In this document: one piece after another, positions 4,993-16,244 of the stretch
Position numbering within the stretch: position 1 is the first letter of the stretch
Layout: every line of letters begins with the position of its first letter
Origin: an uncultured Gammaproteobacteria bacterium
GTDB taxonomy: Bacteria > Patescibacteriota > Microgenomatia > 2-02-FULL-39-11
DNA length: 64,000 bases
Direction of reading: 5' to 3'
Assembly: GCA_964544585.1 (NCBI GenBank)
Contig: CAZJBV010000001.1
Coordinates: 45,330-109,329 of the forward strand
Position numbers and translations under genes: made by a program
Notes under the pieces: generated by a model
Told to the model about the DNA's origin: nothing
What the model saw: the letters and a program-made list of their open reading frames with translations, nothing else
The model's database searches: none

Positions 4993-6912
4993 TTAATATA
5001 AGACTCTTAATTTGATGGTTTCGGGCATTTTTTTCAACGCATCTATGACGTCTTGTTGATATGTTTTATTTACATCGGTGATGACATAACCAATATATTC
5101 ATTGGTTTTGAGGTATTGACCCTCGATATTGATCTTATGCTCGGCGAGTAAACTATTAATTTTGGCTAAAACTCCAGGAACATTTTGATGTATGTGAATT
5201 AACCTGTGAGCATTTTTTAGTTCTGGGAGTTGAAGATTGGGGAAATTGAGACTGAGAGTAGTATTACCTGTATTTATATAATTTATTACTTTTTCGGGAA
5301 CAAATTTTCCCATATGAGCTTGGGCTTCTTCTGATCGACCGCCAATATGTGGCGTAAGAATGACATTTTCTAGATTTTGCAGCGGTGAAGAAAAAGGCTC
5401 CGTATTACTTTTGGGTTCTTTGGGAAAAACGTCGAGTCCGGCGCCAAGAATTTTTCCTGTTTTGATATATTTTATCAGTGCATTTATATCTACGATGTGT
5501 CCCCTACTGGTGTTGACCAAAATTGCACCTTCTTTCATTAAACGAAACTCTTTTTCGGAAATTAAATTTGTATTTTCCTTTCTTCCATCCATATGGAGGG
5601 TGATGACGTCTGCAGTTTGCAGTAATTCTTTTAATGATTTACAAGGTTTGGCATTGCCAAGTGGAAGCCTCTCAATAATGTCATAAAAATAGACTTCCAT
5701 GCCAAGCATTTCGGCCAGGATGGAAACTTGAGAACCAATATTGCCATAGCCAATGATGCCCAATTTTTTGCCTTTTACTTCGTGGCAATTTTTAGCGCTT
5801 TTATCCCAGATGCCTTTGTGCATTTTGACGCTTTTTTCAAAGGTTCTTCTATAGAGCAAAATTATCTCTCCGATGACCAATTCAACGACACTTCTGGTAT
5901 TACTAAATGGTGCATTAAAAACAATAATTCCTTTTTGGGCACATGCAGCAAGATTTATATTGTTGACGCCTATACCGAACCGAGCTACGGCCATTAATTT
6001 GGGTGAATTTTCAGCTATTAATTGAGTAATTTGGGTCCGAGAACCTATACCAACAACGTGTATGTCTTTTAAATTGTCGAAGAGTTCCTCTTCATCAATA
6101 GACTGGGGTAATGATTCTACTTGATATCCCTCTTTTTTAAATGCATCATAGGCATTTTTATGAATATTTTCTAAAAGAAGTACTTTAATTCTATTTTTGG
6201 GATATGAAAGGGCTCTGGGCATACGCATAATATACAAGAACTCGTCGAGATTTGGAAGAAGATAATCTGCTTTGTTGGCAACGCTTTCTCTTCTAATATT
6301 CTCGCTGAAGAGAAAAAATTTGTCTGCAGATCCTTCCTTTTTTATTTCGTAGTCTGTGAAGCCGTCGCCAATTGCATAGATTGTTCCTTTTAAATTAAGC
6401 GTTTTTATCCTTTTAAACTTTCCTCCTTTTTGGGAAAGAAGATTTTTTCTATCAAAACCTTTGATTTGGTCTTTTTTGTTAAAGATAAATTCATTTGCCA
6501 GGATGTGATTTTCCTTTATGCCAAATAGTTTGAAGATGGGAGCTATATATTCTTTAAATCCGCCCGAAATAATAAAAATGTTATCTTTGTATTGTTTGAA
6601 AAATTCTTTATTTCTTATAATCGATGGGGTAATATTTTTCCTTAGAATTTTAATCAATTTGGCTATATGGTTTTTATTGGCATTAAATAATTTAATTCTT
6701 TTCTCCAGTGAAGTATCAAATGGAATCTTACCCGTCATCCCCTGATTGGTAAAATCTCGTATTTTTTCCATGATTTCCGCTTTCTTGGGATTTTCTTCCA
6801 GCGATATTTCTGCCAGTTTCTCTAATGATTCGATTTTGATGAAAGTACTATCGAAATCGATAATAAAAAAGAGATTGTGACTTTTCATTGGGAGGATTAT
6901 AATGCAAATCAA
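4993..6912 (-). CDS. Fusion protein: phosphoserine phosphatase (HAD, SerB-like) + D-3-phosphoglycerate dehydrogenase with C-terminal ACT domain (SerA)
   Basis: HAD motifs DFDST, GDGFTD at N-terminus; 2-hydroxyacid dehydrogenase NAD fold GIIGYGNIGSQV...; ACT-like C-terminus; probable real start at MKSHNLFF (about 6888). Confidence 0.7.
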   Translation of the reverse strand: MICIIILPMKSHNLFFIIDFDSTFIKIESLEKLAEISLEENPKKAEIMEKIRDFTNQGMTGKIPFDTSLEKRIKLFNANKNHIAKLIKILRKNITPSIIRNKEFFKQYKDNIFIISGGFKEYIAPIFKLFGIKENHILANEFIFNKKDQIKGFDRKNLLSQKGGKFKRIKTLNLKGTIYAIGDGFTDYEIKKEGSADKFFLFSENIRRESVANKADYLLPNLDEFLYIMRMPRALSYPKNRIKVLLLENIHKNAYDAFKKEGYQVESLPQSIDEEELFDNLKDIHVVGIGSRTQITQLIAENSPKLMAVARFGIGVNNINLAACAQKGIIVFNAPFSNTRSVVELVIGEIILLYRRTFEKSVKMHKGIWDKSAKNCHEVKGKKLGIIGYGNIGSQVSILAEMLGMEVYFYDIIERLPLGNAKPCKSLKELLQTADVITLHMDGRKENTNLISEKEFRLMKEGAILVNTSRGHIVDINALIKYIKTGKILGAGLDVFPKEPKSNTEPFSSPLQNLENVILTPHIGGRSEEAQAHMGKFVPEKVINYINTGNTTLSLNFPNLQLPELKNAHRLIHIHQNVPGVLAKINSLLAEHKINIEGQYLKTNEYIGYVITDVNKTYQQDVIDALKKMPETIKLRVLY

Positions 6913-6925
6913 TTTATAAAAAAAT

Positions 6926-8014
6926 ATGGCTTCTTATAAAATTGCTGTTATACCTGGAGATGGGGTCGGGCAAGAAGTTTCCCAAGAGGCAATTAAAATT
7001 TTAAAAGCTGTCTCTAAAAAATACGCATTTAATGTAAGACTTAATACATTTGACTGGGGTTGTGACTATTATTTGAAAAATGGGAAAATGATGCCTCCCG
7101 ATGCTCTGGAAATTTTGAAGCCGTTTGAGGCAATATTTTTAGGGTGTATTGGGGATAGTAAAAAAGTTCCTGATCATATTGCTTTGACTTTACTGCTTAA
7201 GATTAGAAAAGGTTTTGATCAGTATGTAAACTTGAGGCCGATCAAACTCTATCGGGGAGTTACATCTGTTGTTAACACTGCTTTGCCTGAAACTATCGAT
7301 ATGATTGTAGTCCGAGAAAACACAGAGGGTGAATATTCTTCTACTGGAGGTTTTTTTAAAAAAGATACCCCCGACGGATTTGCAATACAAACAAGCATAT
7401 TTACACGAAGGGGATGCGAAAGAGTGATGCGCTATGCTTTTGAGCTGGCTCGCAAAAGAAAAAAATTTGGCCGAAAAAAACCTTTTGGGATGGTAACTAA
7501 CTGTACAAAATCGAATGCTTTAAATTATTCGATGGTGTTTTGGGATTCTGTTTATCAAAAAGTTTCTAAAGATTATTCGGATATTAAAACAGATATGGCT
7601 TTGGTTGATGCATTATGTATGTGGCTAGTTAAAAATCCCGGATATTTTGACGTGATTGTGGCATCAAATCTGTTTGGGGATATAATTACTGATTTGGGGG
7701 CTATGCTCCAAGGAGGGATGGGGTTTGCTGCTGGTGGAAATATAAATCCGGAAAAAGTTTATCCCTCGATGTTTGAACCAATTCATGGATCGGCGCCTAA
7801 ATATGCTGGTAAATCGATTGTCAATCCGATTGCATCAATTGAAGCTATCCGAATGATGCTTGAACATATTGGAGAAGAAAAGGCGGCAGACGATATCCAA
7901 AAATCTGTAGAAAAAGTTTTAATTGAGGGTAAAGTAAAAACTGCCGATATGGGAGGAAAAAATAAAACTTACGAAATGGGTGATGTTATAAAAAAGGCTC
8001 TACTTTCAGGTTAG
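6926..8014 (+). CDS. Isopropylmalate/tartrate dehydrogenase family (LeuB/TtuC-like) decarboxylating dehydrogenase
   Basis: N-terminal KIAVIPGDGVGQEV and C-terminal HGSAPKYAGK motifs of the IDH/IMDH family; 362 aa. Confidence 0.7.
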   Translation: MASYKIAVIPGDGVGQEVSQEAIKILKAVSKKYAFNVRLNTFDWGCDYYLKNGKMMPPDALEILKPFEAIFLGCIGDSKKVPDHIALTLLLKIRKGFDQYVNLRPIKLYRGVTSVVNTALPETIDMIVVRENTEGEYSSTGGFFKKDTPDGFAIQTSIFTRRGCERVMRYAFELARKRKKFGRKKPFGMVTNCTKSNALNYSMVFWDSVYQKVSKDYSDIKTDMALVDALCMWLVKNPGYFDVIVASNLFGDIITDLGAMLQGGMGFAAGGNINPEKVYPSMFEPIHGSAPKYAGKSIVNPIASIEAIRMMLEHIGEEKAADDIQKSVEKVLIEGKVKTADMGGKNKTYEMGDVIKKALLSG

Positions 8015-8218
8015 GGAAAAAAAACCTTCCAGATTAAAAAAATGATAACCACAACAAGTATAATCCCCAACCAAAAAGGTAAAAATGTCAAAAAAAGAAG
8101 AAAAAGACCTAAAGCTATAAGTGCAAGAAGGATTTTGGGGAAATTAATGGTCATTTGATTTCTATATTAAGAGTTCGAAATTCAGTTGTCAATGGTTTGA
8201 AATTTTTATCTTAGTTCT

Positions 8219-8245
8219 GGATAGTGGCATTTTTTCCATTTTTTA
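8219..8245 (+). repeat. Intergenic repeat copy 1 (ggatagtggcattttttccatttttta)
   Basis: 24 bp identical to 13579..13602; core GGATAGTGGCA also at 9103 and 10730. Confidence 0.85.
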
Positions 8246-8260
8246 AAACTTTCCACCTTT

Positions 8261-8689
8261 TTAATCTTTGTCTTTTAGAATGGTCAGAAAATCGTTGGGA
8301 GTAACCAGTGTTATTCCTTCATAGGAACTACCAATCTTTCTCATGAGTGGACCATCTCCGGTCACCAAATAATCTACTTGTGCACTTAATGCTGTCGCCA
8401 AGGTAAGATCGTCTTCAGGATGTGTAGCGACTCCTTCAATTTTGACTATTATGGGAGTAATGGTAGCTTCATTTTGTAATAATTCAATAAAAGATATTAC
8501 CTCGTTTGGGCTGACCCGCTGTTGGAAATATGGTTTTTGAAGTGTTCGGGTTAATTCAACCAAAATGTGTTCTGAAACCACAAGATTAAATTGTCCGTCT
8601 CTCCAAGCATCAAGTATTTGACCCGGAGGAGTTGAGGTGGTTAGTGTGCCGGATGCTAAGATATTGGTATCTAATACTGCGAAAACCAT
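8261..8689 (-). CDS. vapC: PIN-domain toxin (VapC-like)
   Basis: MVFAVLDTNIL N-terminus and LVTGD acidic motif typical of PIN nucleases; 4 nt from upstream antitoxin gene. Confidence 0.7.
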   Translation of the reverse strand: MVFAVLDTNILASGTLTTSTPPGQILDAWRDGQFNLVVSEHILVELTRTLQKPYFQQRVSPNEVISFIELLQNEATITPIIVKIEGVATHPEDDLTLATALSAQVDYLVTGDGPLMRKIGSSYEGITLVTPNDFLTILKDKD

Positions 8690-8692
8690 GCA

Positions 8693-8995
8693 TTAATTAC
8701 GATTATCACTTACTCGTTTTTCTTTTCTTACTTCACTAAGTGCATTGTTTACCTCTTTTGCTATCTCTTGTGGAGGAACATTTTTAAATGCTTCCCGGAT
8801 TCGATCTAAAACTTTGAATCGTTCTCTACGCTGTTTCTCAAGCTGTGTAAATCTTTCTAAATCTTCTGCTGATATAACAGCTGCCACCGGAATACCACTC
8901 TTTTTTACCACGACTCTGGTCTGTCCACGAAATATTTTATTAAGCAGTTGGCTCCATTGTTGTCTCACGTCTGAAGATTTCATTGTTTGAGTCAT
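8693..8995 (-). CDS. Phd/YefM-family antitoxin
   Basis: 100 aa; RQQWSQLLNKI...GQTRVVVKKSGIPVAAVISAEDLERF matches Phd/YefM fold; immediately upstream of PIN gene. Confidence 0.65.
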   Translation of the reverse strand: MTQTMKSSDVRQQWSQLLNKIFRGQTRVVVKKSGIPVAAVISAEDLERFTQLEKQRRERFKVLDRIREAFKNVPPQEIAKEVNNALSEVRKEKRVSDNRN

Positions 8996-9100
8996 ATTTA
9001 TACCTCCTGTTCGTACATATTAGTACGAAACTGTACGAAAGTCAAGCTTCGAGTTAGATTATTTGTGTAACAAATTAATAGAGCAATTTTTATTCGAGAT

Positions 9101-9114
9101 CAGGATAGTGGCAA
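9101..9114 (+). repeat. Intergenic repeat copy 2 (caggatagtggcaa)
   Basis: core GGATAGTGGCA. Confidence 0.7.
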
Positions 9115-9124
9115 CGTTTTCTGT

Positions 9125-9304
9125 TTAATTGATCTTCTTTTCCCTGTCATTGTTGATCTTTTTTATTCTTTCTTCAAAATGCTTTCCGTACATGGTACAA
9201 CCTTCTGTTCCGCATTTTATCAAGCCATTTTTATATCTTTCCTCTGAAATTTCTGCATGGCATGTACCAGTACAGACATAAACTTTAGTCATTTTGGAAT
9301 TCAT
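9125..9304 (-). CDS. Small zinc-ribbon protein (59 aa), not in supplied ORF track
   Basis: Manual translation MNSKMTKVYVCTGTCHAEISEERYKNGLIKCGTEGCTMYGKHFEERIKKINNDREKKIN: two Cys pairs CTGTC...CGTEGC; sits between antitoxin and ATPase genes. Confidence 0.3.
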   Translation of the reverse strand: MNSKMTKVYVCTGTCHAEISEERYKNGLIKCGTEGCTMYGKHFEERIKKINNDREKKIN

Positions 9305-9317
9305 ATTAATATGTATT

Positions 9318-10679
9318 TTAATTTAATAATAGTTTTCTCAATAGTGCTTTTTTTTCCATTTCCAATTTAGCTGCAGGAATATGATAGATATTTGATTTAT
9401 TTGCTGACTCTCTCTCCGCGGATTTAGTGATGAGGAATGCAAATGGAGCTTGATGATGTTTTATAAATTGGACTAGTTCTTTTTCATCATCAGGAGTAAT
9501 GCGATCGCTATATTTGACTTCCCATGGTACCTTCATTCCTCCATGTGTTGTAGTTACAAAATCAACTTCATGATTTTGGAAACGAAAAAACTCTACCGGA
9601 ACAGGTAATTGTTTGAGAAAGGAATAAACATATGTTTCGACTAAATTACCTAATGATGATTGTTGGGAAAAATTTGTTGATGTAAGATATACTTTTTTTG
9701 CTGTCCGGCTTGATTTGGCAATTTTTTTTGTTTGATTATGACAAAGGTCGATAAGAAATGCTTTTTTCAACCAATCAATATATGCGCGCGTCGTACGAAT
9801 ATCCACCCCTAAATCTCTGGAAAGATTATCATATAGAAGGAGATTGCCGGAATGCTCTTTCAGATAGGCAAAGATGATTTTGAGAATGTCAGGTCGTTTT
9901 ATAGGAAATGTTTGCGGCAGATCAATCTCTATGATTTTATCTTGAATAGTCTCTAAATATTCATTCGCTTCAGCTTGTCCATATTGATGAATTACGGGTT
10001 GAGGAAATTGTCCTATTCTTAGATATTTCTCAAAGAATGTAGCCATGTATTCAGGAAAAAAGTGGCTATATTTATCTAATTTATCCCCTCTAAAATCGTT
10101 TTCATAAATTTCTTTGTGGGCTTTTTGATCAAGTTTAAGATACTCAGCGAAAGTAAGAGGCATAATTGCAATTTCCTTTAATCTACCGGCCAAACTTTCT
10201 GTCGATCTTTTCCGAATAAATAGTGAGGATGATCCACTAAGGATAAACTTCACATTTTTGGCTGTATCATAGTAAGTCTTAATGATATCTTGCCAGTAAG
10301 GGATAATCTGTATTTCATCTAGAAAAATGAAGGTAGAAGTATCAGTAACGCTCAAAGGAGTATGGAGATAGGAAGTGGCATACGTCTCTAGTATTTGACG
10401 CAATGTATCTGGTTCATTTTTGACAATGGAGCGATCGAAGGAAAAATAAAAAAGATTCCGTGGCGTGATGGATTTATTAAGGAGATGTCCAAGTATTTGC
10501 TTTATGAGAGTACTTTTGCCTACTCTACGTAGGCCGGTCAATGAGATGATCAAATCTTTTTCAAGCCAACGTAGAATTTCTGGGTAGTATGGACGGTGAA
10601 ACCAGGTTGTCTCTTGAGGTCGAAATCTAGGATCAAACCATTGCTGATTTTGATCTCTTAATAATGCTTCTAGATTCAT
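9318..10679 (-). CDS. AAA+ ATPase with DUF4143-type C-terminal domain (COG1373-like)
   Basis: Walker A GLRRVGKSTLIKQ; Walker B IFLDEIQ; paralog of 12331..13512. Confidence 0.7.
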   Translation of the reverse strand: MNLEALLRDQNQQWFDPRFRPQETTWFHRPYYPEILRWLEKDLIISLTGLRRVGKSTLIKQILGHLLNKSITPRNLFYFSFDRSIVKNEPDTLRQILETYATSYLHTPLSVTDTSTFIFLDEIQIIPYWQDIIKTYYDTAKNVKFILSGSSSLFIRKRSTESLAGRLKEIAIMPLTFAEYLKLDQKAHKEIYENDFRGDKLDKYSHFFPEYMATFFEKYLRIGQFPQPVIHQYGQAEANEYLETIQDKIIEIDLPQTFPIKRPDILKIIFAYLKEHSGNLLLYDNLSRDLGVDIRTTRAYIDWLKKAFLIDLCHNQTKKIAKSSRTAKKVYLTSTNFSQQSSLGNLVETYVYSFLKQLPVPVEFFRFQNHEVDFVTTTHGGMKVPWEVKYSDRITPDDEKELVQFIKHHQAPFAFLITKSAERESANKSNIYHIPAAKLEMEKKALLRKLLLN

Positions 10680-10690
10680 ATTTTAGATGC

Positions 10691-10719
10691 ATTATAATGT
10701 ATCTAATGTATATTGTCAA
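10691..10719 (-). promoter_or_regulatory. Consensus sigma70-like promoter TTGACA-17nt-TATAAT giving a near-leaderless transcript for the DUF4143 ATPase
   Basis: Minus-strand reading: ccTTGACAatatacattagatacatTATAATgcatctaaaaATG; ATG about 11 nt after -10, no SD. Confidence 0.5.
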
Positions 10720-10727
10720 GGCTGTAC

Positions 10728-10743
10728 TTCAGGATAGTGGCAT
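10728..10743 (+). repeat. Intergenic repeat copy 3 (ttcaggatagtggcat)
   Basis: core GGATAGTGGCA, about 10 nt upstream of the -35 of the ATPase promoter (minus strand). Confidence 0.7.
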
Positions 10744-11597
10744 TAAGTCGGACTTGCAAGAGACTGTGTACTTGTCAAAAGTACATTTTTAAAATGCTTA
10801 CTAAAGTCAGTCACTGTTAGTGGTGACTGAATAAATGGTTCTAAATCCCGTCGGACATCAGCCGGGTCTAGTTGAGTGATCTTCTTAATTAACTGCTTTA
10901 CTACTTCCTCTTTTGAGTTTACTTTTAGAGCTTTGTAGAGTCTTTCCCAACGCGGGTTTAGCTTGTTAGTTTTTTGTCTTCTCTCAAAAAACCATACTAG
11001 ATCAAATACATCCCTGCCTTTAAAGGATATAGTTTGAGTTTTGCCTTTAAAAAAATCTCGTTGTAAGAAAGCAATGATTTTATTGGTAAAAAGGCTCGAT
11101 AAGTCATATGCTTTCACAAAAAAAGTAAATTCACTTGTCGTTATCGGTTTTACTTCGGTCCTATACATACCAAGCGTCTCCAGAGAAAAATCCACTCGGA
11201 CAAAAAGTTGCGTCGCATCACTTTTGTTTTTTACCAATCCTGCTTCGGTCAAAAGATTAGGAAATTTAATAAATATGGTTTGCTTATTGCCGGCGATTTT
11301 TGATTCAATCTCCCGATATTGAAGATTCTTCGTAAAATATAATAATACTTCAGATGCAAACGTTTGGATATTAAATGGCTTTATAGAATCAAAATCAATT
11401 TCTTCAGATAGTCGAGGCAAACCATAGATTTTTCTAAGTGCAGTTCCGCCAGTAAAAATGAGTTCTTTATACAGTTTGTGATTGTAAACAAAATACAAAA
11501 TATATTCTTGCAGTGCCTCTTTTATTAAAGTTCGCAGAAATAACGGGTGTCTTCTCCCCTCTTTTTCGACGATAAGACGAATTGTATCAATAATCAT
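10743..11597 (-). CDS. AbiEii/DUF1814-family nucleotidyltransferase toxin (type IV TA / abortive infection)
   Basis: N-terminal NTase motif FTGGTALRKIYGLPRLSEEIDFD; 284 aa; 4-nt overlap with upstream AbiEi-like gene. Confidence 0.6.
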   Translation of the reverse strand: MIIDTIRLIVEKEGRRHPLFLRTLIKEALQEYILYFVYNHKLYKELIFTGGTALRKIYGLPRLSEEIDFDSIKPFNIQTFASEVLLYFTKNLQYREIESKIAGNKQTIFIKFPNLLTEAGLVKNKSDATQLFVRVDFSLETLGMYRTEVKPITTSEFTFFVKAYDLSSLFTNKIIAFLQRDFFKGKTQTISFKGRDVFDLVWFFERRQKTNKLNPRWERLYKALKVNSKEEVVKQLIKKITQLDPADVRRDLEPFIQSPLTVTDFSKHFKNVLLTSTQSLASPT

Positions 11598-12265
11598 AGT
11601 ATTCCTTCCCGCCGTAAAATCTCTCCAATTTGTTGCATTTTTGCTGATTGTGAGTCGGTTAGGGCTTTTTTTAATTTATCTTTTTCTGCAGAACCTAGAG
11701 CATCCCACTGTATTCTTCCCGTGTCAAATAAATAGTCACGCATATCTTCTGTTGATTTAAACTCCTTGAAATACAAAAAATCAAACAGCGCTTTAAATGG
11801 ATATGCTATCTTGACAGATAAACCCGTAGTACCAAATATGAGTAAGCGGTACCCAGAGTAATAATTGAAAAAATCTTCTTTGAGGCTACGATAGATGAAG
11901 GAAACTTTTTCAGTGTTGTATATACGTGATGATTTTCTTGTCACAGAGGTTATTGCATACGTAGATTCTGGAATAAGATTGTATTTAGAAAGCACATATT
12001 CAAGCGAGACGTATGATGGACTTCGAAGTGTATTGGCAATGTAAAGCCAGTAGAGCTCTGATTGTTCCGGATCTCTGATAAATCCGTCCTGGTATGGCTT
12101 GGAAATATAGAATCCTTTTTTAAGAGGGATTAAATATTGCTCACGGGTGAGCTTTTTGATCCAATAGTTAAGGTCCTCCCCTTCTTTTCCCAGCGCCACA
12201 CCCAGATTTTGTTTCTTAAAGCAGGGTACTTCTGCTAAAGTTGAGATTAGTTGTGCAGTAAGCAT
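11594..12265 (-). CDS. AbiEi-like antitoxin/transcriptional regulator (putative)
   Basis: Position and translational coupling upstream of AbiEii-like NTase; N-terminal helix-rich region compatible with wHTH; weak direct motif support. Confidence 0.45.
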   Translation of the reverse strand: MLTAQLISTLAEVPCFKKQNLGVALGKEGEDLNYWIKKLTREQYLIPLKKGFYISKPYQDGFIRDPEQSELYWLYIANTLRSPSYVSLEYVLSKYNLIPESTYAITSVTRKSSRIYNTEKVSFIYRSLKEDFFNYYSGYRLLIFGTTGLSVKIAYPFKALFDFLYFKEFKSTEDMRDYLFDTGRIQWDALGSAEKDKLKKALTDSQSAKMQQIGEILRREGIL

Positions 12266-12330
12266 ATATTCCAGAATTAGTAAATATTACTACTAATTCT
12301 AGAACAAAATGGGTTAATTGTCAAGTTAGA

Positions 12331-13512
12331 TTAAAGAACTACTGGTGATAAAAACCCAGCTTTTTCCTGAAACTTCTTTGAGATTACAAAGGGTTGAGTT
12401 ATCCCAAGTTCAGATGATAACGCTGAAAGTTTGGTGAGATCTTGCGATGTACCAGTTAACTTTATCTCAAAAGCTGTATTTTTATCTAGGATAGCATCAA
12501 TTTCGGCAGTGTTACGTTTGTTATAAAAACTTACCTTACCGTAACTTGAAAGTTGATTGATAACAGCATTTTCAAATATTTGCGCTTCACTGAATTTTCC
12601 AATCACATTTAAAAGCCCTGTATCAGTAAAATAGACCTTTTTCCCTCCTGCCACAGCTCGATCGATACTTTTGCTAAACCGAGGCAGAAGTTTGATAAAA
12701 AATGTTCCTTGTAAGAATTCAAGAAATCGGTATATCTTAACTCTATCAATAGAAAGTTCACTTGATAGACGAGTTACATCAAGCATTGATCCAACTCGAG
12801 GTACTAGAAGTAAAATCATGTCCCGAAGTTCCCGAATATCTGAGTAATCGGATAAAATTTTAATATCTTTTTCAAAAAATGAGGCAAAGATATTTTTCAA
12901 AACCATTATCTTGGTATCCTTATCTTCTGTAGTTACTACCTCTGGAAAGCCACCATATGTTAGAAAATCCTCGTATTCAGCAATCCTGCCTTTATGAGTA
13001 AAAATACTATTTTTCTTATATGCATCTTGCAAAGTAAAATTTTGAACTTCTTTCAATGAAACCACATCTTTAAAATAAAGATATTCTTGGAAGCTTAAAG
13101 GAGGGATTTCATACAGGAATTTACGACCAGACAGTGATTCAGGAAATAGATTTTTAAGATAAAAGCTGGAAGAACCTGTTAAATAAAATTTAATGTTATG
13201 ATGGTCAATAAGATACTTAATGACTTTGGTAATTTCAGGGAAATTTTGAATTTCATCAATAAATACTGATAATTTGCCTTTCTTTTTTCCCATATCAGTC
13301 AGTCTTTTATAGATTACATTATAATCTTGATCTTCAAAGACTTTCTGATCGAGCGGGTTGTCAAAATCAAACCACAATTTTGGCTCTTTGACTTCCTCAA
13401 AGACTTGACGCATGAGGGTAGTCTTCCCAACCTGCCGCATTCCAGTAATAAGTAGTGCGTTTTTGTGATTAAGATACTTTACTAATTCGTAATATAAGAG
13501 CCTCTTTCTCAT
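12331..13512 (-). CDS. AAA+ ATPase with DUF4143-type C-terminal domain (COG1373-like), paralog
   Basis: Walker A GMRQVGKTTLMRQV; Walker B VFIDEIQ. Confidence 0.7.
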   Translation of the reverse strand: MRKRLLYYELVKYLNHKNALLITGMRQVGKTTLMRQVFEEVKEPKLWFDFDNPLDQKVFEDQDYNVIYKRLTDMGKKKGKLSVFIDEIQNFPEITKVIKYLIDHHNIKFYLTGSSSFYLKNLFPESLSGRKFLYEIPPLSFQEYLYFKDVVSLKEVQNFTLQDAYKKNSIFTHKGRIAEYEDFLTYGGFPEVVTTEDKDTKIMVLKNIFASFFEKDIKILSDYSDIRELRDMILLLVPRVGSMLDVTRLSSELSIDRVKIYRFLEFLQGTFFIKLLPRFSKSIDRAVAGGKKVYFTDTGLLNVIGKFSEAQIFENAVINQLSSYGKVSFYNKRNTAEIDAILDKNTAFEIKLTGTSQDLTKLSALSSELGITQPFVISKKFQEKAGFLSPVVL

Positions 13513-13559
13513 AGTGTAAATATATTATTACAAATCTGCACAAATTTGTAAAGTAATGT

Positions 13560-16244
13560 TTACACCCCTAATTGCGGGTAGTGGCATTTTTTCCATTTTT
13601 TACCCGACCCGCACCAGCAGGGGTCGTTGCGGCCGAGTTTTTTATTAGTTTGTGGTTTGTAGTTTGTAGGTTGTAGTTTATCTGCTTGTTTCTGAATGGG
13701 TGTTTGTTGCTCGCGGCGCATTTGTTGGAGTTGGTCCGGAGCGAGCTGGACCTGGACTTTGAATATTCTTTGGGTTATTTCGCTGTCGATTGCGAGAACG
13801 AGTCTTTCAAACATATCAAAGGCCTCATTTTTGTACTCGACTAGTGGGTCTCTCTGGCCATAACCGCGAAGGCCAATGCCTTCACGAAGGGTGTCGATGG
13901 CATCTAGATGATCCATCCAGAGATTGTCAACCACTTGAAGCATGACCCATTTTTCGACCTGCCTGGCTACAGCTTGCGTGAGTTGTTTTTCTCTCTGAAT
14001 GTATACGTCATGAACTAATTTATTTAAAAATAAAATAATATCTTCCTCAGTTTTATTTTGGGCAATTTTTTTGCTTAATTCCTCTTGTGAACGTGGATCA
14101 AAAGGAACAATCGAGGAAAATTCTGTAATAATTTCTTTTCTCTCATTCTCTGAGATACCACTTGCTGAGTGTACAGTAACGATGCGACTAATACTATTTT
14201 CCAGTTTTTCGATTATCATGGATTTGAGATTATTTCCTTCGAGTATTTTTTTTCTTAAGCCGTAAACTATTTCCCTTTGCTTATTGAGGACATCATCGTA
14301 TTCGACCAGATGCTTTCTTGAATCGAAATGAAAACCTTCTACTTTGACTTGGGCTTGTTCTATGGCGCGGCTCACCATGGCATGTTCGAGAGGAACGTCT
14401 TCCGGCAATTTAAAAATAGTCATCAATTTAGCCACTTGATCACCGCCAAAAAGGCGCATAATATCGTCATCGAGGGCAACATAGAATCTGGTCGAGCCCG
14501 GATCTCCTTGTCTTCCCGATCTTCCCCGCAGCTGATTGTCTATCCTTCTTGACTCGTGACGTTCTGTGCCGATGACATGGAGGCCGCCAAAAGAAACTAC
14601 TTCATCATGATTTTTCTGCCATCCATCATGGAGTTGTTTATATTCTTTATTTTTTTCACCACCCTCACTTAAGTATTTATCCGGCGGGAAACCGCCAAGG
14701 ATAATATCGACTCCGCGGCCGGCCATGTTGGTGGCTACAGTTACCGCACCTTTTTTGCCGGCATCGGCGATAAACATGGCTTCTTTTTCATGATTTTTGG
14801 CGTTTAGTAAATTGTGAGGAATGCCTTTTCTTCTTAAGAGTTCTGAAAGATATTCATTTTTTTCAATAGAAGTTGTACCTACTAGTACGGGTTGACCTCT
14901 TTTATATGAATCTTCGATATCTTTGACGACTGCATCAAATTTGGCTTTTGACGTTTTATAGACGCTATCCGGATAGTCGGTCCGTATCATTGGCTTATTT
15001 GTAGGAATTACAACAACATCCAGGTTATATATTTTGTGAAACTCTTCTGCCTCTGTAGCTGCAGTACCGGTCATGCCGGCGAGTTTTTCATACATTCTGA
15101 AATAGTTTTGCAGTGAAACTGTGGCGAGAGTTTTAGATTCCTGCTGGATGGGAACGCCTTCTTTGGCTTCTATGGCTTGATGCAATCCTTCGGAAAAACG
15201 TCGGCCGTGAAGAAGTCTTCCTGTAAATTCATCGACGATAATTACTTGATTGTCTTTGACGACATATTCTTTATCTATGTGGAATAGAGATTTGGCTTTG
15301 AGGGCAGCCTCCATATGATGGACGACTTCAAAATCTTTTTCGTATAGATTTTCTACTCCTAAAAGTTTTTCCACTTTTTCGATACCTTTTTCGGTTAAAT
15401 GAGCGGTGTGCATTTTTTCGTCGACGATAAATGATTCTCCCTCTTGTGAGACTCGATCGATTATTTTGGCATATTCGTAATACTTTTGGGTTGGTTCAGT
15501 ATCGGGAGCAGAAATGATATGAGGTGTACGAGCTTCATCGATCAAGACTGAGTCAACTTCATCAACTACTGCGTAATGGAATCCTCGTTGTGACATCTGG
15601 GAAATGTCGGAAACCATATTGTCGCGAAGGTAATCAAAACCAAATTCGCTGTTGATACCGTAAGTAACATCTGCTTTGTAAGCTTCTTTTCTTGTAATCT
15701 GCTTTAGGTTTCGGAGTCTCCAGTCTGTAGCAGAATTATCAGTAAAATCTGGATCAAATATAAAGGATTGGTCGTGAATAATGGCGGAGACGGAAACTCC
15801 CAAAAGATGAAAAATCGGCCCCATCCAGCCAGCATCACGTCTGGCTAGGTAATCGTTGACAGTGACAAGATGGACGCCTCTTCCGGTCAACGAGTTTAGG
15901 TAGAGTGCGGGAATGGCTGATAGAGTTTTTCCTTCTCCCGTTTTTTGCTCGGCGACGGCTCCTCGATGGAGGGTGTATGCAGCAACTAGCTGGACTTCAT
16001 AATGTTTTTCACCTATGGTTTTTTTGGCTGCTTCTCGGACGAGGGCGAATGCTTCGGGAAGAATATCATCAAGAGTTTCGCCTTTTGCCAGTCGACTTTT
16101 AAACTCGGCTGTTTTTTCCTTGAATTCGTCTTTTTTAAGCTTTGCCATTTGTTCGTCAAGAGAAAGGATCCTATCAATTGTAGGCTTTATTCTAACTATT
16201 TCTTTTTGATTTGCATCGAGGAATCGGGAGAGAAATTTGAACAT
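13560..16244 (-). CDS. secA: Preprotein translocase ATPase SecA
   Basis: 894 aa; DEAD-like motor motifs (GEGKTL, VDEVDS), C-terminal zinc-binding CWCGSGKKWKKCH. Confidence 0.95.
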   Translation of the reverse strand: MFKFLSRFLDANQKEIVRIKPTIDRILSLDEQMAKLKKDEFKEKTAEFKSRLAKGETLDDILPEAFALVREAAKKTIGEKHYEVQLVAAYTLHRGAVAEQKTGEGKTLSAIPALYLNSLTGRGVHLVTVNDYLARRDAGWMGPIFHLLGVSVSAIIHDQSFIFDPDFTDNSATDWRLRNLKQITRKEAYKADVTYGINSEFGFDYLRDNMVSDISQMSQRGFHYAVVDEVDSVLIDEARTPHIISAPDTEPTQKYYEYAKIIDRVSQEGESFIVDEKMHTAHLTEKGIEKVEKLLGVENLYEKDFEVVHHMEAALKAKSLFHIDKEYVVKDNQVIIVDEFTGRLLHGRRFSEGLHQAIEAKEGVPIQQESKTLATVSLQNYFRMYEKLAGMTGTAATEAEEFHKIYNLDVVVIPTNKPMIRTDYPDSVYKTSKAKFDAVVKDIEDSYKRGQPVLVGTTSIEKNEYLSELLRRKGIPHNLLNAKNHEKEAMFIADAGKKGAVTVATNMAGRGVDIILGGFPPDKYLSEGGEKNKEYKQLHDGWQKNHDEVVSFGGLHVIGTERHESRRIDNQLRGRSGRQGDPGSTRFYVALDDDIMRLFGGDQVAKLMTIFKLPEDVPLEHAMVSRAIEQAQVKVEGFHFDSRKHLVEYDDVLNKQREIVYGLRKKILEGNNLKSMIIEKLENSISRIVTVHSASGISENERKEIITEFSSIVPFDPRSQEELSKKIAQNKTEEDIILFLNKLVHDVYIQREKQLTQAVARQVEKWVMLQVVDNLWMDHLDAIDTLREGIGLRGYGQRDPLVEYKNEAFDMFERLVLAIDSEITQRIFKVQVQLAPDQLQQMRREQQTPIQKQADKLQPTNYKPQTNKKLGRNDPCWCGSGKKWKKCHYPQLGV
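13576..13602 (+). repeat. Intergenic repeat copy 4 (gggtagtggcattttttccatttttta)
   Basis: 24-bp perfect direct repeat of copy 1; lies between secA stop and second DUF4143 ATPase start. Confidence 0.85.

What the first reader, a model, noticed from the sequence alone, without database searches (positions are those of the whole stretch)
8219..13602. 5.4-kb toxin-antitoxin/abortive-infection islet partitioned by a repeated GGATAGTGGCA element, bounded by 24-bp perfect direct repeats
Sequence: tagtggcattttttccatttttta occurs identically at 8222-8245 and 13579-13602, between a LeuB-like gene and secA. Two further copies of the core (9103, 10730) split the interval into three modules (VapBC; Zn-ribbon + DUF4143 ATPase; AbiEii-AbiEi + DUF4143 ATPase). 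Three of the four copies sit about 60-110 nt upstream of a minus-strand gene start. Inference: the repeat is either a shared promoter/operator or cassette-boundary (att-like) sequence of a modular defence islet.
Basis: partly seen in the sequence, partly recalled or inferred. Interest (0 to 1): 0.55.

Follow-up and report, generated by a model that had tools for sequence, protein, structure and literature searches.

The report
Defence cassettes stacked in secA's tail
The repeated motif is the last few codons of the essential secA gene, copied each time a small anti-phage/toxin-antitoxin cassette was inserted there; related bacteria show that this gene end is the docking site of a family of serine-recombinase mobile elements, so the islet is a stack of insertion scars, not a promoter.

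Summary
The 24-bp perfect repeat (8222-8245, 13579-13602) and the core copies at 9103 and 10732 exist and are far above chance.

On the minus strand every copy reads TGC CAC TAY CC = Cys-His-Tyr-Pro, followed 3-4 codons later by a stop. This is the end of the SecA SEC-C zinc finger. The copy at 13576-13602 is the working secA end. The other three are orphan pseudo-tails.

The 5.4-kb interval is three promoter-bearing, recombinase-less defence modules stacked in the secA 3' end:
- ATPase2 (PDC-S01) plus AbiEi/AbiEii
- ATPase1 (PDC-S01) plus a Zn-ribbon protein
- Phd/PIN

Each module supplied a new secA tail and pushed the older tail downstream.

In about 110 related CPR (Microgenomates) loci, the region downstream of secA is hypervariable, and pseudo-tails recur only on the secA strand. 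All six lineages examined of one large serine recombinase (LSR) family lie convergent to secA, 3-65 nt from its stop, with definable attL/attR arms. secA's tail is therefore an LSR attB.

The window holds no LSR gene and no attP-type arms, so LSR catalysis of these particular insertions is inferred, not shown. The closest analogue is the SCC/psiSCC composite island at staphylococcal orfX.

The parts
13560..16244 (-). secA (894 aa), intact. Its last 9 codons are the current, functional copy of the repeat.
   Evidence: ORF. Pfam SecA_DEAD, P-loop_SecA, SecA_SW, SecA_PP_bind, and SEC-C at residues 872-890.
13560..13602 (-). Site A: the functional secA end, AAA AAA TGG AAA AAA TGC CAC TAC CCG CAA TTA GGG GTG TAA (KKWKKCHYPQLGV*). 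It holds the right-hand 24-bp repeat (13579-13602) and the core (13576-13586), and matches the inferred attB centre.
   Evidence: The same KKWKKCHYP end is conserved in about 60 related SecA proteins. The LSR crossover is inferred to fall in the Lys-Lys codons just 5' of TGYCAY.
12331..13553 (-). Module A, unit 1: own promoter/palindromic operator (13552..13524) plus the AAA_14-DUF4143 ATPase2 (13512..12331). This is a horizontally mobile single-gene unit.
   Evidence: Pfam. PADLOC PDC-S01, E 1.4e-59. The unit is 86.5% and 81.7% nt-identical in L010 and L045, from the -35 box to the stop, while secA of the same genomes is about 70% identical. Promoter.
10743..12325 (-). Module A, unit 2: promoter (12324..12296), AbiEi (12265..11594) and AbiEii (11597..10743). 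This is a type IV TA / abortive-infection pair. The AbiEii stop codon abuts core B.
   Evidence: Pfam AbiEii. PADLOC AbiEi 6e-36 and AbiEii 4.5e-33. The unit is about 80% nt-identical in L110-L112, which are not next to secA.
10716..10742 (-). Site B: orphan secA pseudo-tail TGC CAC TAT CCT GAA GTA CAG CCT TGA (CHYPEVQP*). It has no upstream secA sequence. Its stop overlaps the -35 box of the next promoter.
9125..10719 (-). Module B: consensus promoter TTGACA-17-TATAAT (10719..10691), AAA_14-DUF4143 ATPase1 (10679..9318) and a 59-aa Cys-rich Zn-ribbon-like ORF (9304..9125).
   Evidence: Promoter matches 12/12. Pfam. PADLOC PDC-S01, E 5e-65. The 59-aa ORF has no family hit.
9090..9113 (-). Site C: orphan secA pseudo-tail TGC CAC TAT CCT GAT CTC GAA TAA (CHYPDLE*).
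8261..9045 (-). Module C: promoter (9045..9017) flanked by GTACGAA inverted repeats, Phd/YefM-type antitoxin (8995..8693) and PIN toxin (8689..8261).
   Evidence: Pfam PIN_3 3.7e-17 and PhdYeFM 3.6e-7. NCBIfam TIGR00305 and TIGR01552. Promoter.
8206..8245 (-). Site D: the distal pseudo-tail AAA AAA TGG AAA AAA TGC CAC TAT CCA GAA CTA AGA TAA (KKWKKCHYPELR*). It holds the left-hand 24-bp repeat and is inferred to be the original secA end of this lineage.
   Evidence: L041, whose SecA ends CHYPELPS*, also carries the orf47 homologue downstream and shares ...GAACT..ACTAAGATAAA after the tail.
6926..8192 (.). The rest of the variable region relative to the closest relative: promoter 8192..8164, a 47-aa membrane ORF (8154..8011, minus) and a convergent isopropylmalate/tartrate-dehydrogenase-family gene (6926..8014, plus).
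   Evidence: In L001 secA is followed directly by the serA-like gene, the homologue of window 6912..4993. NCBIfam.

Best explanation
**What it is.** The repeated element is the 3'-terminal coding sequence of secA: the Lys-Lys-Cys-His-Tyr-Pro codons of the SEC-C zinc finger. In Microgenomates (CPR bacteria) this sequence is the chromosomal attachment site (attB) of a family of large serine recombinases (LSRs).

**How the islet formed.** The 5.4-kb islet is a composite island built by at least three successive insertions of small, recombinase-less, promoter-bearing defence cassettes into that site. Each incoming cassette joined secA within or just next to TGCCACTA. It supplied a new Pro-X3-4-stop tail, so SecA stayed intact with all four zinc ligands. 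It also pushed the previous tail downstream as an orphan.

The order of the copies therefore records history:
- Site D (CHYPELR*, next to orf47) is the original end.
- Sites C and B are intermediate ends.
- Site A is the current end.

The cassettes are expressed from their own promoters and do what their families do: PIN/Phd TA, AbiE abortive infection, and PDC-S01 ATPase-nuclease candidates.

**Shown.** The repeats are secA pseudo-tails. The hotspot exists. LSR elements target exactly this site in relatives.

**Inferred.** An LSR acting in trans, or recombination between core copies, mobilised these particular arm-less cassettes, and in this order.
For: 1. **Frame and stop.** All four copies read C-H-Y-P in one frame with a stop 3-4 codons later. 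One of them is the true secA end.

2. **Strand bias in relatives.** Across 76 related secA loci, CHYP-type pseudo-tails occur 26 times downstream on the secA strand (593 kb). They occur 3 times upstream (642 kb) and 11 times on the opposite strand (1240 kb). For the strict DNA core the counts are 7, 2 and 0.

3. **Variable region between conserved flanks.**
   - Upstream synteny is conserved.
   - Downstream, 146 ORFs fall into 134 Pfam families.
   - A conserved downstream block sits 2.0-8.1 kb from the secA stop.

4. **Other genomes carry cassettes here too.** Single cassettes and tandem arrays occur, each ending in a conserved ~45-nt arm plus TGYCAYTAYCC plus a short tail. A metagenome scan with the arm found it only downstream of secA, in 7 of the 7 contigs that reach far enough upstream.

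5. **The LSR family.** The L043 locus has an LSR (Resolvase+Recombinase+Zn_ribbon_recom) 8 nt from a secA broken inside the core. Five further lineages, 48-78% identical to it, are all convergent to secA within 3-65 nt.

6. **Two-armed att site.** The sequence after the crossover on the secA side is the inverted copy of the distal arm, giving a ~54-bp palindromic attP. The L105 element has both attL and attR, and the reconstructed attB restores a normal SecA end.

7. **LSR-less cassettes with both arms exist** in L059, L076 and L086.

8. **Horizontal transfer.** The ATPase2 unit is 82-86% nt-identical between secA hotspots of genomes whose secA is about 70% identical.

9. **The 24-bp repeat is centred on the inferred crossover**.
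Against: - The window has no LSR gene. This rests on a motif-level screen only.
- Its three internal or distal junctions lack the conserved P-type arm. nhmmer matches only the 17-nt core part, E=4.
- They also lack significant hairpin potential.
- Canonical LSR chemistry (attP x attB giving attL + attR) does not regenerate an attB. Serial insertion with normal CHYP tails therefore needs non-canonical substrates or another recombination route.
- Just 5' of TGCCAC, sites B and C do not match secA. This fits poorly with a crossover in the Lys-Lys codons.
- Site D's left side resembles secA itself rather than an attP arm.
- The AbiE unit also occurs away from secA, so some units move by other means.
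- No empty-site or alternative-junction contigs were found in the same population.
Confidence: 0.7

Rival explanations
1. **Recombinase-independent accretion.** The cassettes arrived by transformation or other DNA uptake and were fixed by homologous recombination anchored in the conserved secA 3' end. The other junction was illegitimate or based on microhomology (homology-facilitated illegitimate recombination), which duplicated part of the secA end each time. The LSR family uses the same site but had nothing to do with this islet.
For: - The window junctions have no attP-type arms and no recombinase.
- The extent and position of the duplicated secA segment vary between cases:
  - 24 bp in the window
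  - 26 bp including the tail in L031
  - about 60 nt with no cargo in L040
  - a different left junction in the ~100-bp mini-inserts
- Tails A and D look like native SecA tails of other genomes, as expected if donor secA ends come along with the cargo.
- The AbiE unit junction truncates the last AbiEii codons.
Against: - Three independent junctions in the window begin exactly at TGCCAC, and arrays in other genomes have precise, conserved arm-core junctions.
- The pseudo-tails coincide with the attB of an LSR family found at this site in 6 of 6 lineages.
- Illegitimate joins would not be expected to hit the same 11 bp repeatedly.
Confidence: 0.17
2. **Shared cis-regulatory element.** GGATAGTGGCA is an operator or promoter module bound by a common regulator that co-ordinates the defence operons.
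For: Each copy lies 52-107 nt upstream of a minus-strand start codon. All copies share one orientation.
Against: - One copy is the coding end of secA, and all are in frame with a following stop.
- The best promoter hexamers lie downstream of the copies and differ in sequence.
- The module operators are different palindromes.
- In relatives the same motif marks insertion boundaries regardless of cargo or cargo orientation. In L071 the cargo is on the opposite strand.
Confidence: 0.02
3. **Remnants of cassette-encoded SEC-C proteins.** Each module originally ended in its own small SEC-C-motif protein, and the repeats are what is left of those genes rather than of secA.
For: The SEC-C motif occurs at the C-terminus of many non-SecA proteins (Pfam PF02810, general knowledge). 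A Cys-rich 59-aa ORF lies next to site C.
Against: - The pseudo-tails lack the first two Cys codons.
- They are preceded by stops or lie out of frame with the neighbouring genes.
- The 59-aa ORF ends 11 nt before core C, in another frame.
- Site D shares 24 identical nt with this genome's own secA.
Confidence: 0.02

Closest known systems
SCC / psiSCC composite islands at the 3' end of orfX (rlmH) in staphylococci (Ccr large serine recombinases)
   Same: - Insertion is into the last codons of a conserved housekeeping gene, which stays intact.
- Every element is flanked by direct repeats that are copies of the integration-site sequence.
- Tandem composite islands carry internal repeats.
- Some modules lack recombinase genes and carry accessory or defence functions.
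- The recombinase class is serine, as seen in relatives here.

The SCC features are cited from PMC7029136: att in orfX, flanking direct repeats, 18-nt direct-repeat variants, and composite islands with ccr-less modules such as ACME or ars.
   Different: - Different phylum (CPR Microgenomates), target gene (secA SEC-C zinc-finger codons) and core sequence.
- The modules are tiny (0.9-2.8 kb), each essentially one promoter-to-stop defence operon.
- Each insertion replaces the last 3-5 residues of an essential protein.
- No recombinase lies in the window.
- Whether the CPR LSRs are specifically related to Ccr was not tested.
Serine-integrase prophages and integrative elements that insert into coding genes (e.g. 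phiC31, Bxb1, A118 in comK; own knowledge)
   Same: In relatives (L043, L100-L109):
- The LSR has Resolvase+Recombinase+Zn_ribbon_recom domains and lies at one end of the element.
- An HTH_17 gene lies adjacent.
- attP is an imperfect palindrome of about 50 bp.
- attL/attR are hybrid sites.
- The attP half-site is 6 nt longer than the attB half-site between the shared outer TGYGGT motif and the centre.
   Different: - The window holds only the attB-derived cores and cargo. It has no LSR, no P-type arms and no phage genes.
- Canonical serine-integrase reactions do not create tandem arrays with regenerated attB.
Integron gene-cassette arrays (attI/attC, IntI)
   Same: - Mostly co-oriented small cassettes without their own recombinase are stacked at one site, the newest next to the insertion point.
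- In relatives a conserved recombination sequence lies at the 3' end of each cassette, and the crossover is at its edge, so nothing conserved lies on the other side.
- TA modules are frequent cargo.
   Different: - No IntI tyrosine recombinase was found.
- No GTTRRRY cores were found.
- The window junctions show no conserved hairpin.
- The cassettes carry their own promoters.
- The capture site lies inside a coding gene.
CIMEs and accretion of ICESt1/ICESt3 at the 3' end of fda in Streptococcus thermophilus (own knowledge)
   Same: Site-specific accretion occurs at a housekeeping gene's 3' end. It leaves integrase-less elements bounded by att repeats that can be mobilised in cis or trans.
   Different: That system uses a tyrosine integrase and much larger elements. 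The comparison rests on memory only and was not tested here.

Membership tests
attB of the Microgenomates secA-targeting large serine recombinase family | The sequence ...GGN AAR AAR TGG AAR AAR TGY CAY TAY CC... lies at the 3' end of secA and is the site at which LSR elements are found integrated. | tested here: met
   The window secA ends GGT AAA AAA TGG AAA AAA TGC CAC TAC CC. The LSR-element attL junctions in L043, L100, L103, L105, L107 and L109 break exactly at this sequence.
Integrated LSR element (autonomous) | An LSR gene (Resolvase + Recombinase + Zn_ribbon_recom) lies inside the element, next to one att site. | tested here: not met
   None of the 7 islet proteins has these domains. 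A serine/tyrosine recombinase motif screen of all window ORFs of at least 120 aa found nothing (low sensitivity). The feature is met in relatives.
LSR-mobilisable non-autonomous cassette (attL/attR retained) | P'-type arm after the secA-side junction (YTGAATAGTGA... / ...TAGGGAACCGCA) and P-type arm (TGTGGYAYCCYTATT..ATGACAGYTCARAAR) before the distal core. | tested here: not met
   An nhmmer profile of 12 arms matches the window only over the 17-nt core part, E=4. The window junction sequences do not align with the arms. The feature is met in L059, L076 and L086.
SCC-like composite island / psiSCC analogue | Insertion in the 3' end of a conserved gene, with direct repeats of the integration-site sequence at both ends and between modules. 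| tested here: met
   Four co-oriented copies at 13576, 10732, 9103 and 8219, the outer pair sharing 24 bp.
SCC-like composite island / psiSCC analogue | Recombination at these repeats is catalysed by a serine recombinase. | not testable with these tools
   There is only comparative association of an LSR family with the same site. No excision products or empty sites were found in population contigs.
Integron | IntI-type tyrosine recombinase next to attI, and attC sites with inverted R''/R' cores (GTTRRRY) that fold as hairpins. | tested here: not met
   No tyrosine recombinase motif appeared in 1961 ORF segments of the window and loci, and none appeared in the Pfam census. The window junctions give z-scores of -0.8 to +0.9. 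No GTTRRRY is present at the boundaries.
Sigma70 promoter / operator element | The motif coincides with the -35/-10 hexamers or a regulator palindrome and recurs upstream of regulated genes. | tested here: not met
   The best hexamer pairs start 13-60 nt downstream of each core. The motif is neither a palindrome nor structured. It is coding sequence in secA.
AbiE (type IV TA / abortive infection) | An adjacent AbiEi antitoxin/regulator gene and AbiEii nucleotidyltransferase toxin gene. | tested here: met
   PADLOC AbiEi 6e-36 and AbiEii 4.5e-33. Pfam AbiEii 1.1e-19. The genes overlap by 4 nt. Function was not tested.
PDC-S01 (PADLOC single-gene defence candidate; AAA_14 + DUF4143) | Full-length match to the PDC-S01 profiles, with an AAA_14 ATPase followed by the DUF4143 (PD-(D/E)XK-fold) domain. 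| tested here: met
   ATPase1 5.1e-65 and ATPase2 1.4e-59. Pfam AAA_14 and DUF4143 in both. DUF4143 is listed among PD-(D/E)XK families in PMC3424549. A defence role is only a candidate.
Type II TA, PIN toxin with Phd/YefM antitoxin | A small antitoxin gene directly upstream of a PIN-domain toxin gene. | tested here: met
   Pfam PIN_3 3.7e-17 and PhdYeFM 3.6e-7. NCBIfam TIGR00305 and TIGR01552, both above their cut-offs. The genes are 3 nt apart.

The most novel reading that the evidence does not exclude
In Microgenomates, secA's last codons may act as the capture site of a serine-recombinase-based functional analogue of an integron. Small promoter-bearing cassettes, each carrying a hybrid site (attP-type left arm plus attB-type right half and tail), would be excised by recombination between neighbouring sites. 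A trans-acting LSR would then insert them serially into the secA end. Each insertion would regenerate a usable attB and a functional SecA tail. The result would be defence and accessory cassette arrays that are shuffled between genomes. The window's arm-less array would be a decayed or variant form.
Probability: 0.2. Interest if true: 0.8.

Novelty: new member of a known kind. Interest (0 to 1): 0.6.

Why it matters
**Correct reading of the motif.** The apparent regulatory motif is a set of insertion scars. This gives the islet a readable history: oldest tail distal, newest proximal.

**An apparently undescribed integration hotspot in CPR bacteria.** Full-text searches found no prior description. 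The zinc-finger codons of the essential secA gene serve as attB for a widespread LSR family. The attP, attL and attR sequences can be defined. The elements are built so that SecA keeps its four zinc ligands.

**Practical value.** A natural LSR/attB pair that already sits in every Microgenomates genome is a plausible handle for site-specific genetics in a radiation that has almost no genetic tools. It also adds a well-delimited family to the serine-integrase toolbox.

**Defence biology.** CPR genomes of about 1 Mb concentrate TA, Abi and PDC-S01 units in a recombination hotspot, and these promoter-to-stop units move between genomes.

Tried and rejected
- **Promoter/operator reading.** Rejected: see the coding frame and the promoter scan.
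- **Known RNA family or structured element.** Rfam found nothing at E<=1 in 7900-13700.
- **attC-like hairpins.** Significant only for relatives' arms with a TGTCAT core. Absent from TGCCAC-core arms and from all four window junctions.
- **Phage or plasmid carriers.** Three viral-contig scans found nothing: the arm, the secA-tail pattern and ATPase2.
- **Population variants of this genome.**
  - Logan contigs show the same islet order.
  - Contigs from the upstream gene all break inside secA near codon 387.
  - The exact ATPase2 protein is not on record.
  - No empty site or alternative junction was seen.
- **Base composition.** The islet has 31-37% GC against 39-45% in secA, but the serA side is equally AT-rich, so this is not informative.
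- **dif/Xer site idea.** Dropped: gene orientation and GC skew do not switch here.
- **Cis-encoded integrase.** Cargo of other arrays and a census of 146 downstream ORFs showed none. It was found only after a motif screen picked out L043.
- **Shared cargo between arm-terminated cassettes.** Only the ATPase2 unit is shared at above 60%.
- **Literature on DUF4143/AAA_14.** Only a fold assignment as PD-(D/E)XK.
- **Aligning the sequences left of cores B and C to the attP arm.** No convincing similarity was found by eye, and the arm profile matched only the core.

Full report
**1. Observation**

The 24-mer TAGTGGCATTTTTTCCATTTTTTA occurs exactly twice in the window, at 8222-8245 and 13579-13602. 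No shuffle produced a match even with three mismatches allowed. The 11-mer GGATAGTGGCA occurs at 8219, 9103 and 10732, and as GGGTAGTGGCA at 13576, all on the + strand. With at most one mismatch there are 6 hits against 0.62 expected.
- PIN_3 toxin and Phd/YefM antitoxin
- a 59-aa Cys-rich ORF
- two AAA_14-DUF4143 ATPases
- AbiEi and AbiEii
- secA on one side and an isopropylmalate/tartrate-dehydrogenase-family gene on the other

**2. What the repeat is**

All islet genes and secA lie on the minus strand. Read on that strand, each copy is TGC CAC TA(T/C) CC. Translated in that frame, each gives Cys-His-Tyr-Pro followed by a stop within 3-4 codons:

| Site | Core position | Reading |
|---|---|---|
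| A | 13576 | ...CWCGSGKKWKKCHYPQLGV* |
| B | 10732 | CHYPEVQP* |
| C | 9103 | (KR)CHYPDLE* |
| D | 8219 | KKWKKCHYPELR* |

Site A is the real C-terminus of SecA (894 aa), inside the Pfam SEC-C match at residues 872-890. The other three have no secA sequence upstream. The AbiEii stop codon abuts core B. The Zn-ribbon ORF ends 11 nt before core C. VapC ends 15 nt before the 24-bp repeat. The repeats are therefore orphan copies of the secA end.

The strongest sigma70-like sites on the minus strand start 13-60 nt after each core: 13552, 12324, 10719 (a perfect TTGACA-17-TATAAT), 9045 and 8192. They differ in sequence. Each module thus has its own promoter, and the core is not one. Rfam finds nothing in the interval.

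**3. Comparative evidence for an insertion hotspot**

A scan of species-representative genomes with the SecA C-terminal 350 aa returned 80 loci. All are Patescibacteria, mostly Gottesmanbacteria and other Microgenomates. Their SecA proteins end C.CGSGKKWKKCHYP plus 2-5 variable residues.

The gene upstream of secA, a spermidine-synthase-like methyltransferase, is syntenic in most loci. The downstream side is not:
- In the closest relative, L001, secA is followed after 89 nt by the homologue of the window's serA-like gene.
- 146 ORFs within 4.5 kb downstream of secA fall into 134 Pfam families, with only a DsbA-like thioredoxin recurring.
- A conserved downstream block lies anywhere from 2.0 to 8.1 kb from the secA stop.

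Pseudo-tails are not peculiar to the window. The C[HC][YF]P pattern occurs 26 times downstream on the secA strand, 3 times upstream and 11 times on the opposite strand, over comparable or larger lengths. For the strict DNA core the counts are 7, 2 and 0.

**4. Cassettes and arrays in other genomes**

In L010, L045, L047, L063, L071 and L076 the distal pseudo-tail is preceded by a conserved ~45-nt arm, approximately TGTGGYAYCCYTATTnRRATGACAGYTCARAAR-TGYCAYTAYCC. In the CHYP frame this reads as a disabled SEC-C motif with an in-frame TGA.

A metagenome scan with the arm returned 10 contigs. In all 7 that extend far enough, secA lies 0.5-3.3 kb upstream in the same orientation. A profile of 12 arms then revealed internal arms, meaning tandem arrays:
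- L071: GH5 | arm | VWA | arm | ...
- L092: DUF5671 + 305 aa | arm | PIN | arm
- L047: VIT + exosortase | arm | methyltransferase | arm
- L089

The cargo is very diverse and mostly co-oriented with secA. None of the annotated cargo encodes a recombinase.

**5. The enzyme**

A crude motif screen of 1961 ORF segments picked out a single candidate. It is a 523-aa protein in L043, convergent to secA and 8 nt from its stop. Pfam shows Resolvase + Recombinase + Zn_ribbon_recom, which identifies a large serine recombinase. In L043 secA is broken inside the core (...AAGAAGTGCCAT|CTGAATAGGGAACC...), so SecA ends KKCHLNREP...*.

This LSR has 131 homologues at E<1e-30, largely from Microgenomates. I looked up five further lineages: P0014 (78% identical), P0022 (77%), P0052 (70%), P0101 (48%) and P0093 (50%). 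In every one:
- The LSR gene is convergent to secA, 3-65 nt from its stop.
- Where one was called (three of the five lineages), an HTH_17/MerR-type small gene lies just upstream of the LSR.
- The element carries either defence genes (MmeI-type RM, SMODS, GmrSD) or replication/phage-satellite-like genes (primases, GP3_package, P4 cII, LexA-like).

The secA-side junctions share AARAAR-TGYCAY-N5-TnGGnAACCRCA. This is the inverted copy of the distal arm's outer part, so attP is an imperfect ~54-bp palindrome centred on the Lys-Lys codons just 5' of TGYCAY. Its inner right half-site (TGTCAT or TGCCAT) doubles as the Cys-His codons, which keeps all four zinc ligands of SecA.

The 11.5-kb L105 element has both attL and attR, and the reconstructed attB restores ...CWCGSGKKYKKCHYPN*. 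The attP left half-site is 6 nt longer than the attB left half-site between the shared outer TGYGGT motif and the centre. As I recall, this is the kind of spacing difference described for serine-integrase attP and attB half-sites. That point is inference.

**6. Classes of insert, and where the window fits**

Four classes occupy this attB:
1. Autonomous LSR elements: L043, L100-L109.
2. LSR-less inserts that keep both P' and P arms: L059 (9 kb), L076 (one gene), L086 (three genes) and probably L023.
3. Cassettes with only the distal P arm and a normal CHYP-type SecA tail, including tandem arrays: L010, L045, L047, L063, L071, L085, L089, L092.
4. Arm-less cassettes bounded only by attB-core repeats: the window (three modules of 2844, 1629 and 884 nt) and L031 (a Fic cassette between 26-bp repeats).

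The window's 24-bp repeat is centred on the inferred crossover.

Site D is probably the original secA end. L041 has a CHYPELPS* tail, similar sequence just after it, and the orf47 homologue downstream.

**7. Mobility of the cargo**

The ATPase2 unit (window 13553..12331) runs exactly from its -35 box to its stop. It is 86.5% and 81.7% nt-identical in L010 and L045, in both cases within the secA-downstream array, whereas secA of those genomes is about 70% identical. Its palindromic promoter/operator, TTTACAAATTTRYGCARATTTGTAA, also heads a PIN cassette in L092.

The AbiE unit (12325..10756) is about 80% identical in L110-L112, which are not next to secA. These small promoter-to-stop defence units therefore also move by routes other than this hotspot.

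PADLOC classifies both ATPases as PDC-S01 and confirms AbiEi/AbiEii.

**8. Mechanism: what is shown and what is inferred**

Shown:
- The repeats are secA 3'-end copies.
- The locus is a hypervariable hotspot between conserved flanks.
- A large LSR family integrates precisely there.
- Recombinase-less cassettes with canonical att arms exist there.

Inferred:
- The window's three arm-less modules were inserted one after another at the secA end, newest nearest secA.
- Either a trans-acting LSR or recombination between core copies did this.

Against a simple LSR origin:
- P-type arms are absent.
- Sequences just 5' of cores B and C do not match secA.
- The textbook attP x attB reaction does not regenerate attB.

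The main rival is homology-anchored illegitimate recombination in the conserved secA end. I give it about 0.17.

**9. Comparison and novelty**

The best analogue is the SCC/psiSCC composite island at the 3' end of staphylococcal orfX. It shares serine recombinases, 18-nt direct-repeat copies of the integration site between modules, and ccr-less modules (PMC7029136).

Integrons resemble the arrays in topology but fail the defining tests: no IntI, no attC cores or fold.

Full-text searches found no description of secA as an integration site in CPR bacteria. I file the islet as a new member of a known kind. It has an interesting extension: a conserved, definable LSR attB inside an essential gene across Microgenomates.

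Noticed in passing
L010 11000-11260; also L029, L032, L048-L050, L052, L054, L060, L073 (secA ends): There is a second kind of event at the SEC-C motif. A ~100-150-bp insert after CxCG gives SecA an alternative end such as CPCGAINPETRRPYKYKKCGMINAPYHKG*. The original GSGKKWKKCHYPxx* is left 90-120 nt downstream, preceded by a conserved AAGTAAGGATAGGAGG. L040 has a near-complete duplicate of the secA end 90 nt after the stop, with no cargo. Origin and function are unknown.
   Followed up: partly
window 13524-13552; L010 ~13061; L045 ~12110; L092 (reverse-complemented) ~5615: The same palindromic promoter/operator, TTTACAAATTTRYGCARATTTGTAA, heads the ATPase2 unit in three genomes and a PIN cassette in L092. 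This suggests a shared regulator or a common cassette 5' end.
   Followed up: partly
L110 5414-6253; L111 90-1659; L112 1-1220: The AbiEi/AbiEii unit of the window recurs at about 80% nt identity in contexts unrelated to secA. Homology starts at the -35 box and ends 13 nt before the AbiEii stop. In L111 it is flanked by an imperfect direct repeat, GGGATATG(AA)TAGC.
   Followed up: partly
window 4993-6912 (minus): The gene after the variable region is a fusion. It has an N-terminal HAD/SerB-like phosphoserine phosphatase (about residues 11-193) and a C-terminal D-3-phosphoglycerate dehydrogenase (residues 233-639) (NCBIfam).
   Followed up: no
L095-L099 (Logan contigs of the same population), secA codon ~387; window ~15080: Five independent assemblies from different runs all end at about the same point inside secA (387-390 aa called). 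This hints at strain heterogeneity or a repeat at that position.
   Followed up: no
window 6926-8154: The isopropylmalate/tartrate-dehydrogenase-family gene scores 462.7 bits on TIGR02089, just under its cut-off of 470.4, and passes the cut-off of NF002898 (IPMDH). This gene and the 47-aa membrane ORF are absent between secA and serA in the closest relative, L001. They also belong to the variable region, although no pseudo-tail marks their far boundary.
   Followed up: partly
L103 1-7455: One LSR element at secA carries a dense defence load: an MmeI-type RM fusion, a SMODS-domain protein, DUF6602, GmrSD and a trypsin-like protease. The LSR elements themselves are therefore defence-island vectors in CPR bacteria.
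   Followed up: no
window 9125-9304 (minus): The 59-aa ORF next to ATPase1 has two Cys pairs (CTGTC...C...C) but matches no Pfam, NCBIfam or PADLOC model. Whether it is a partner of the PDC-S01-type ATPase is unknown. ATPase2 has no such partner.
   Followed up: no
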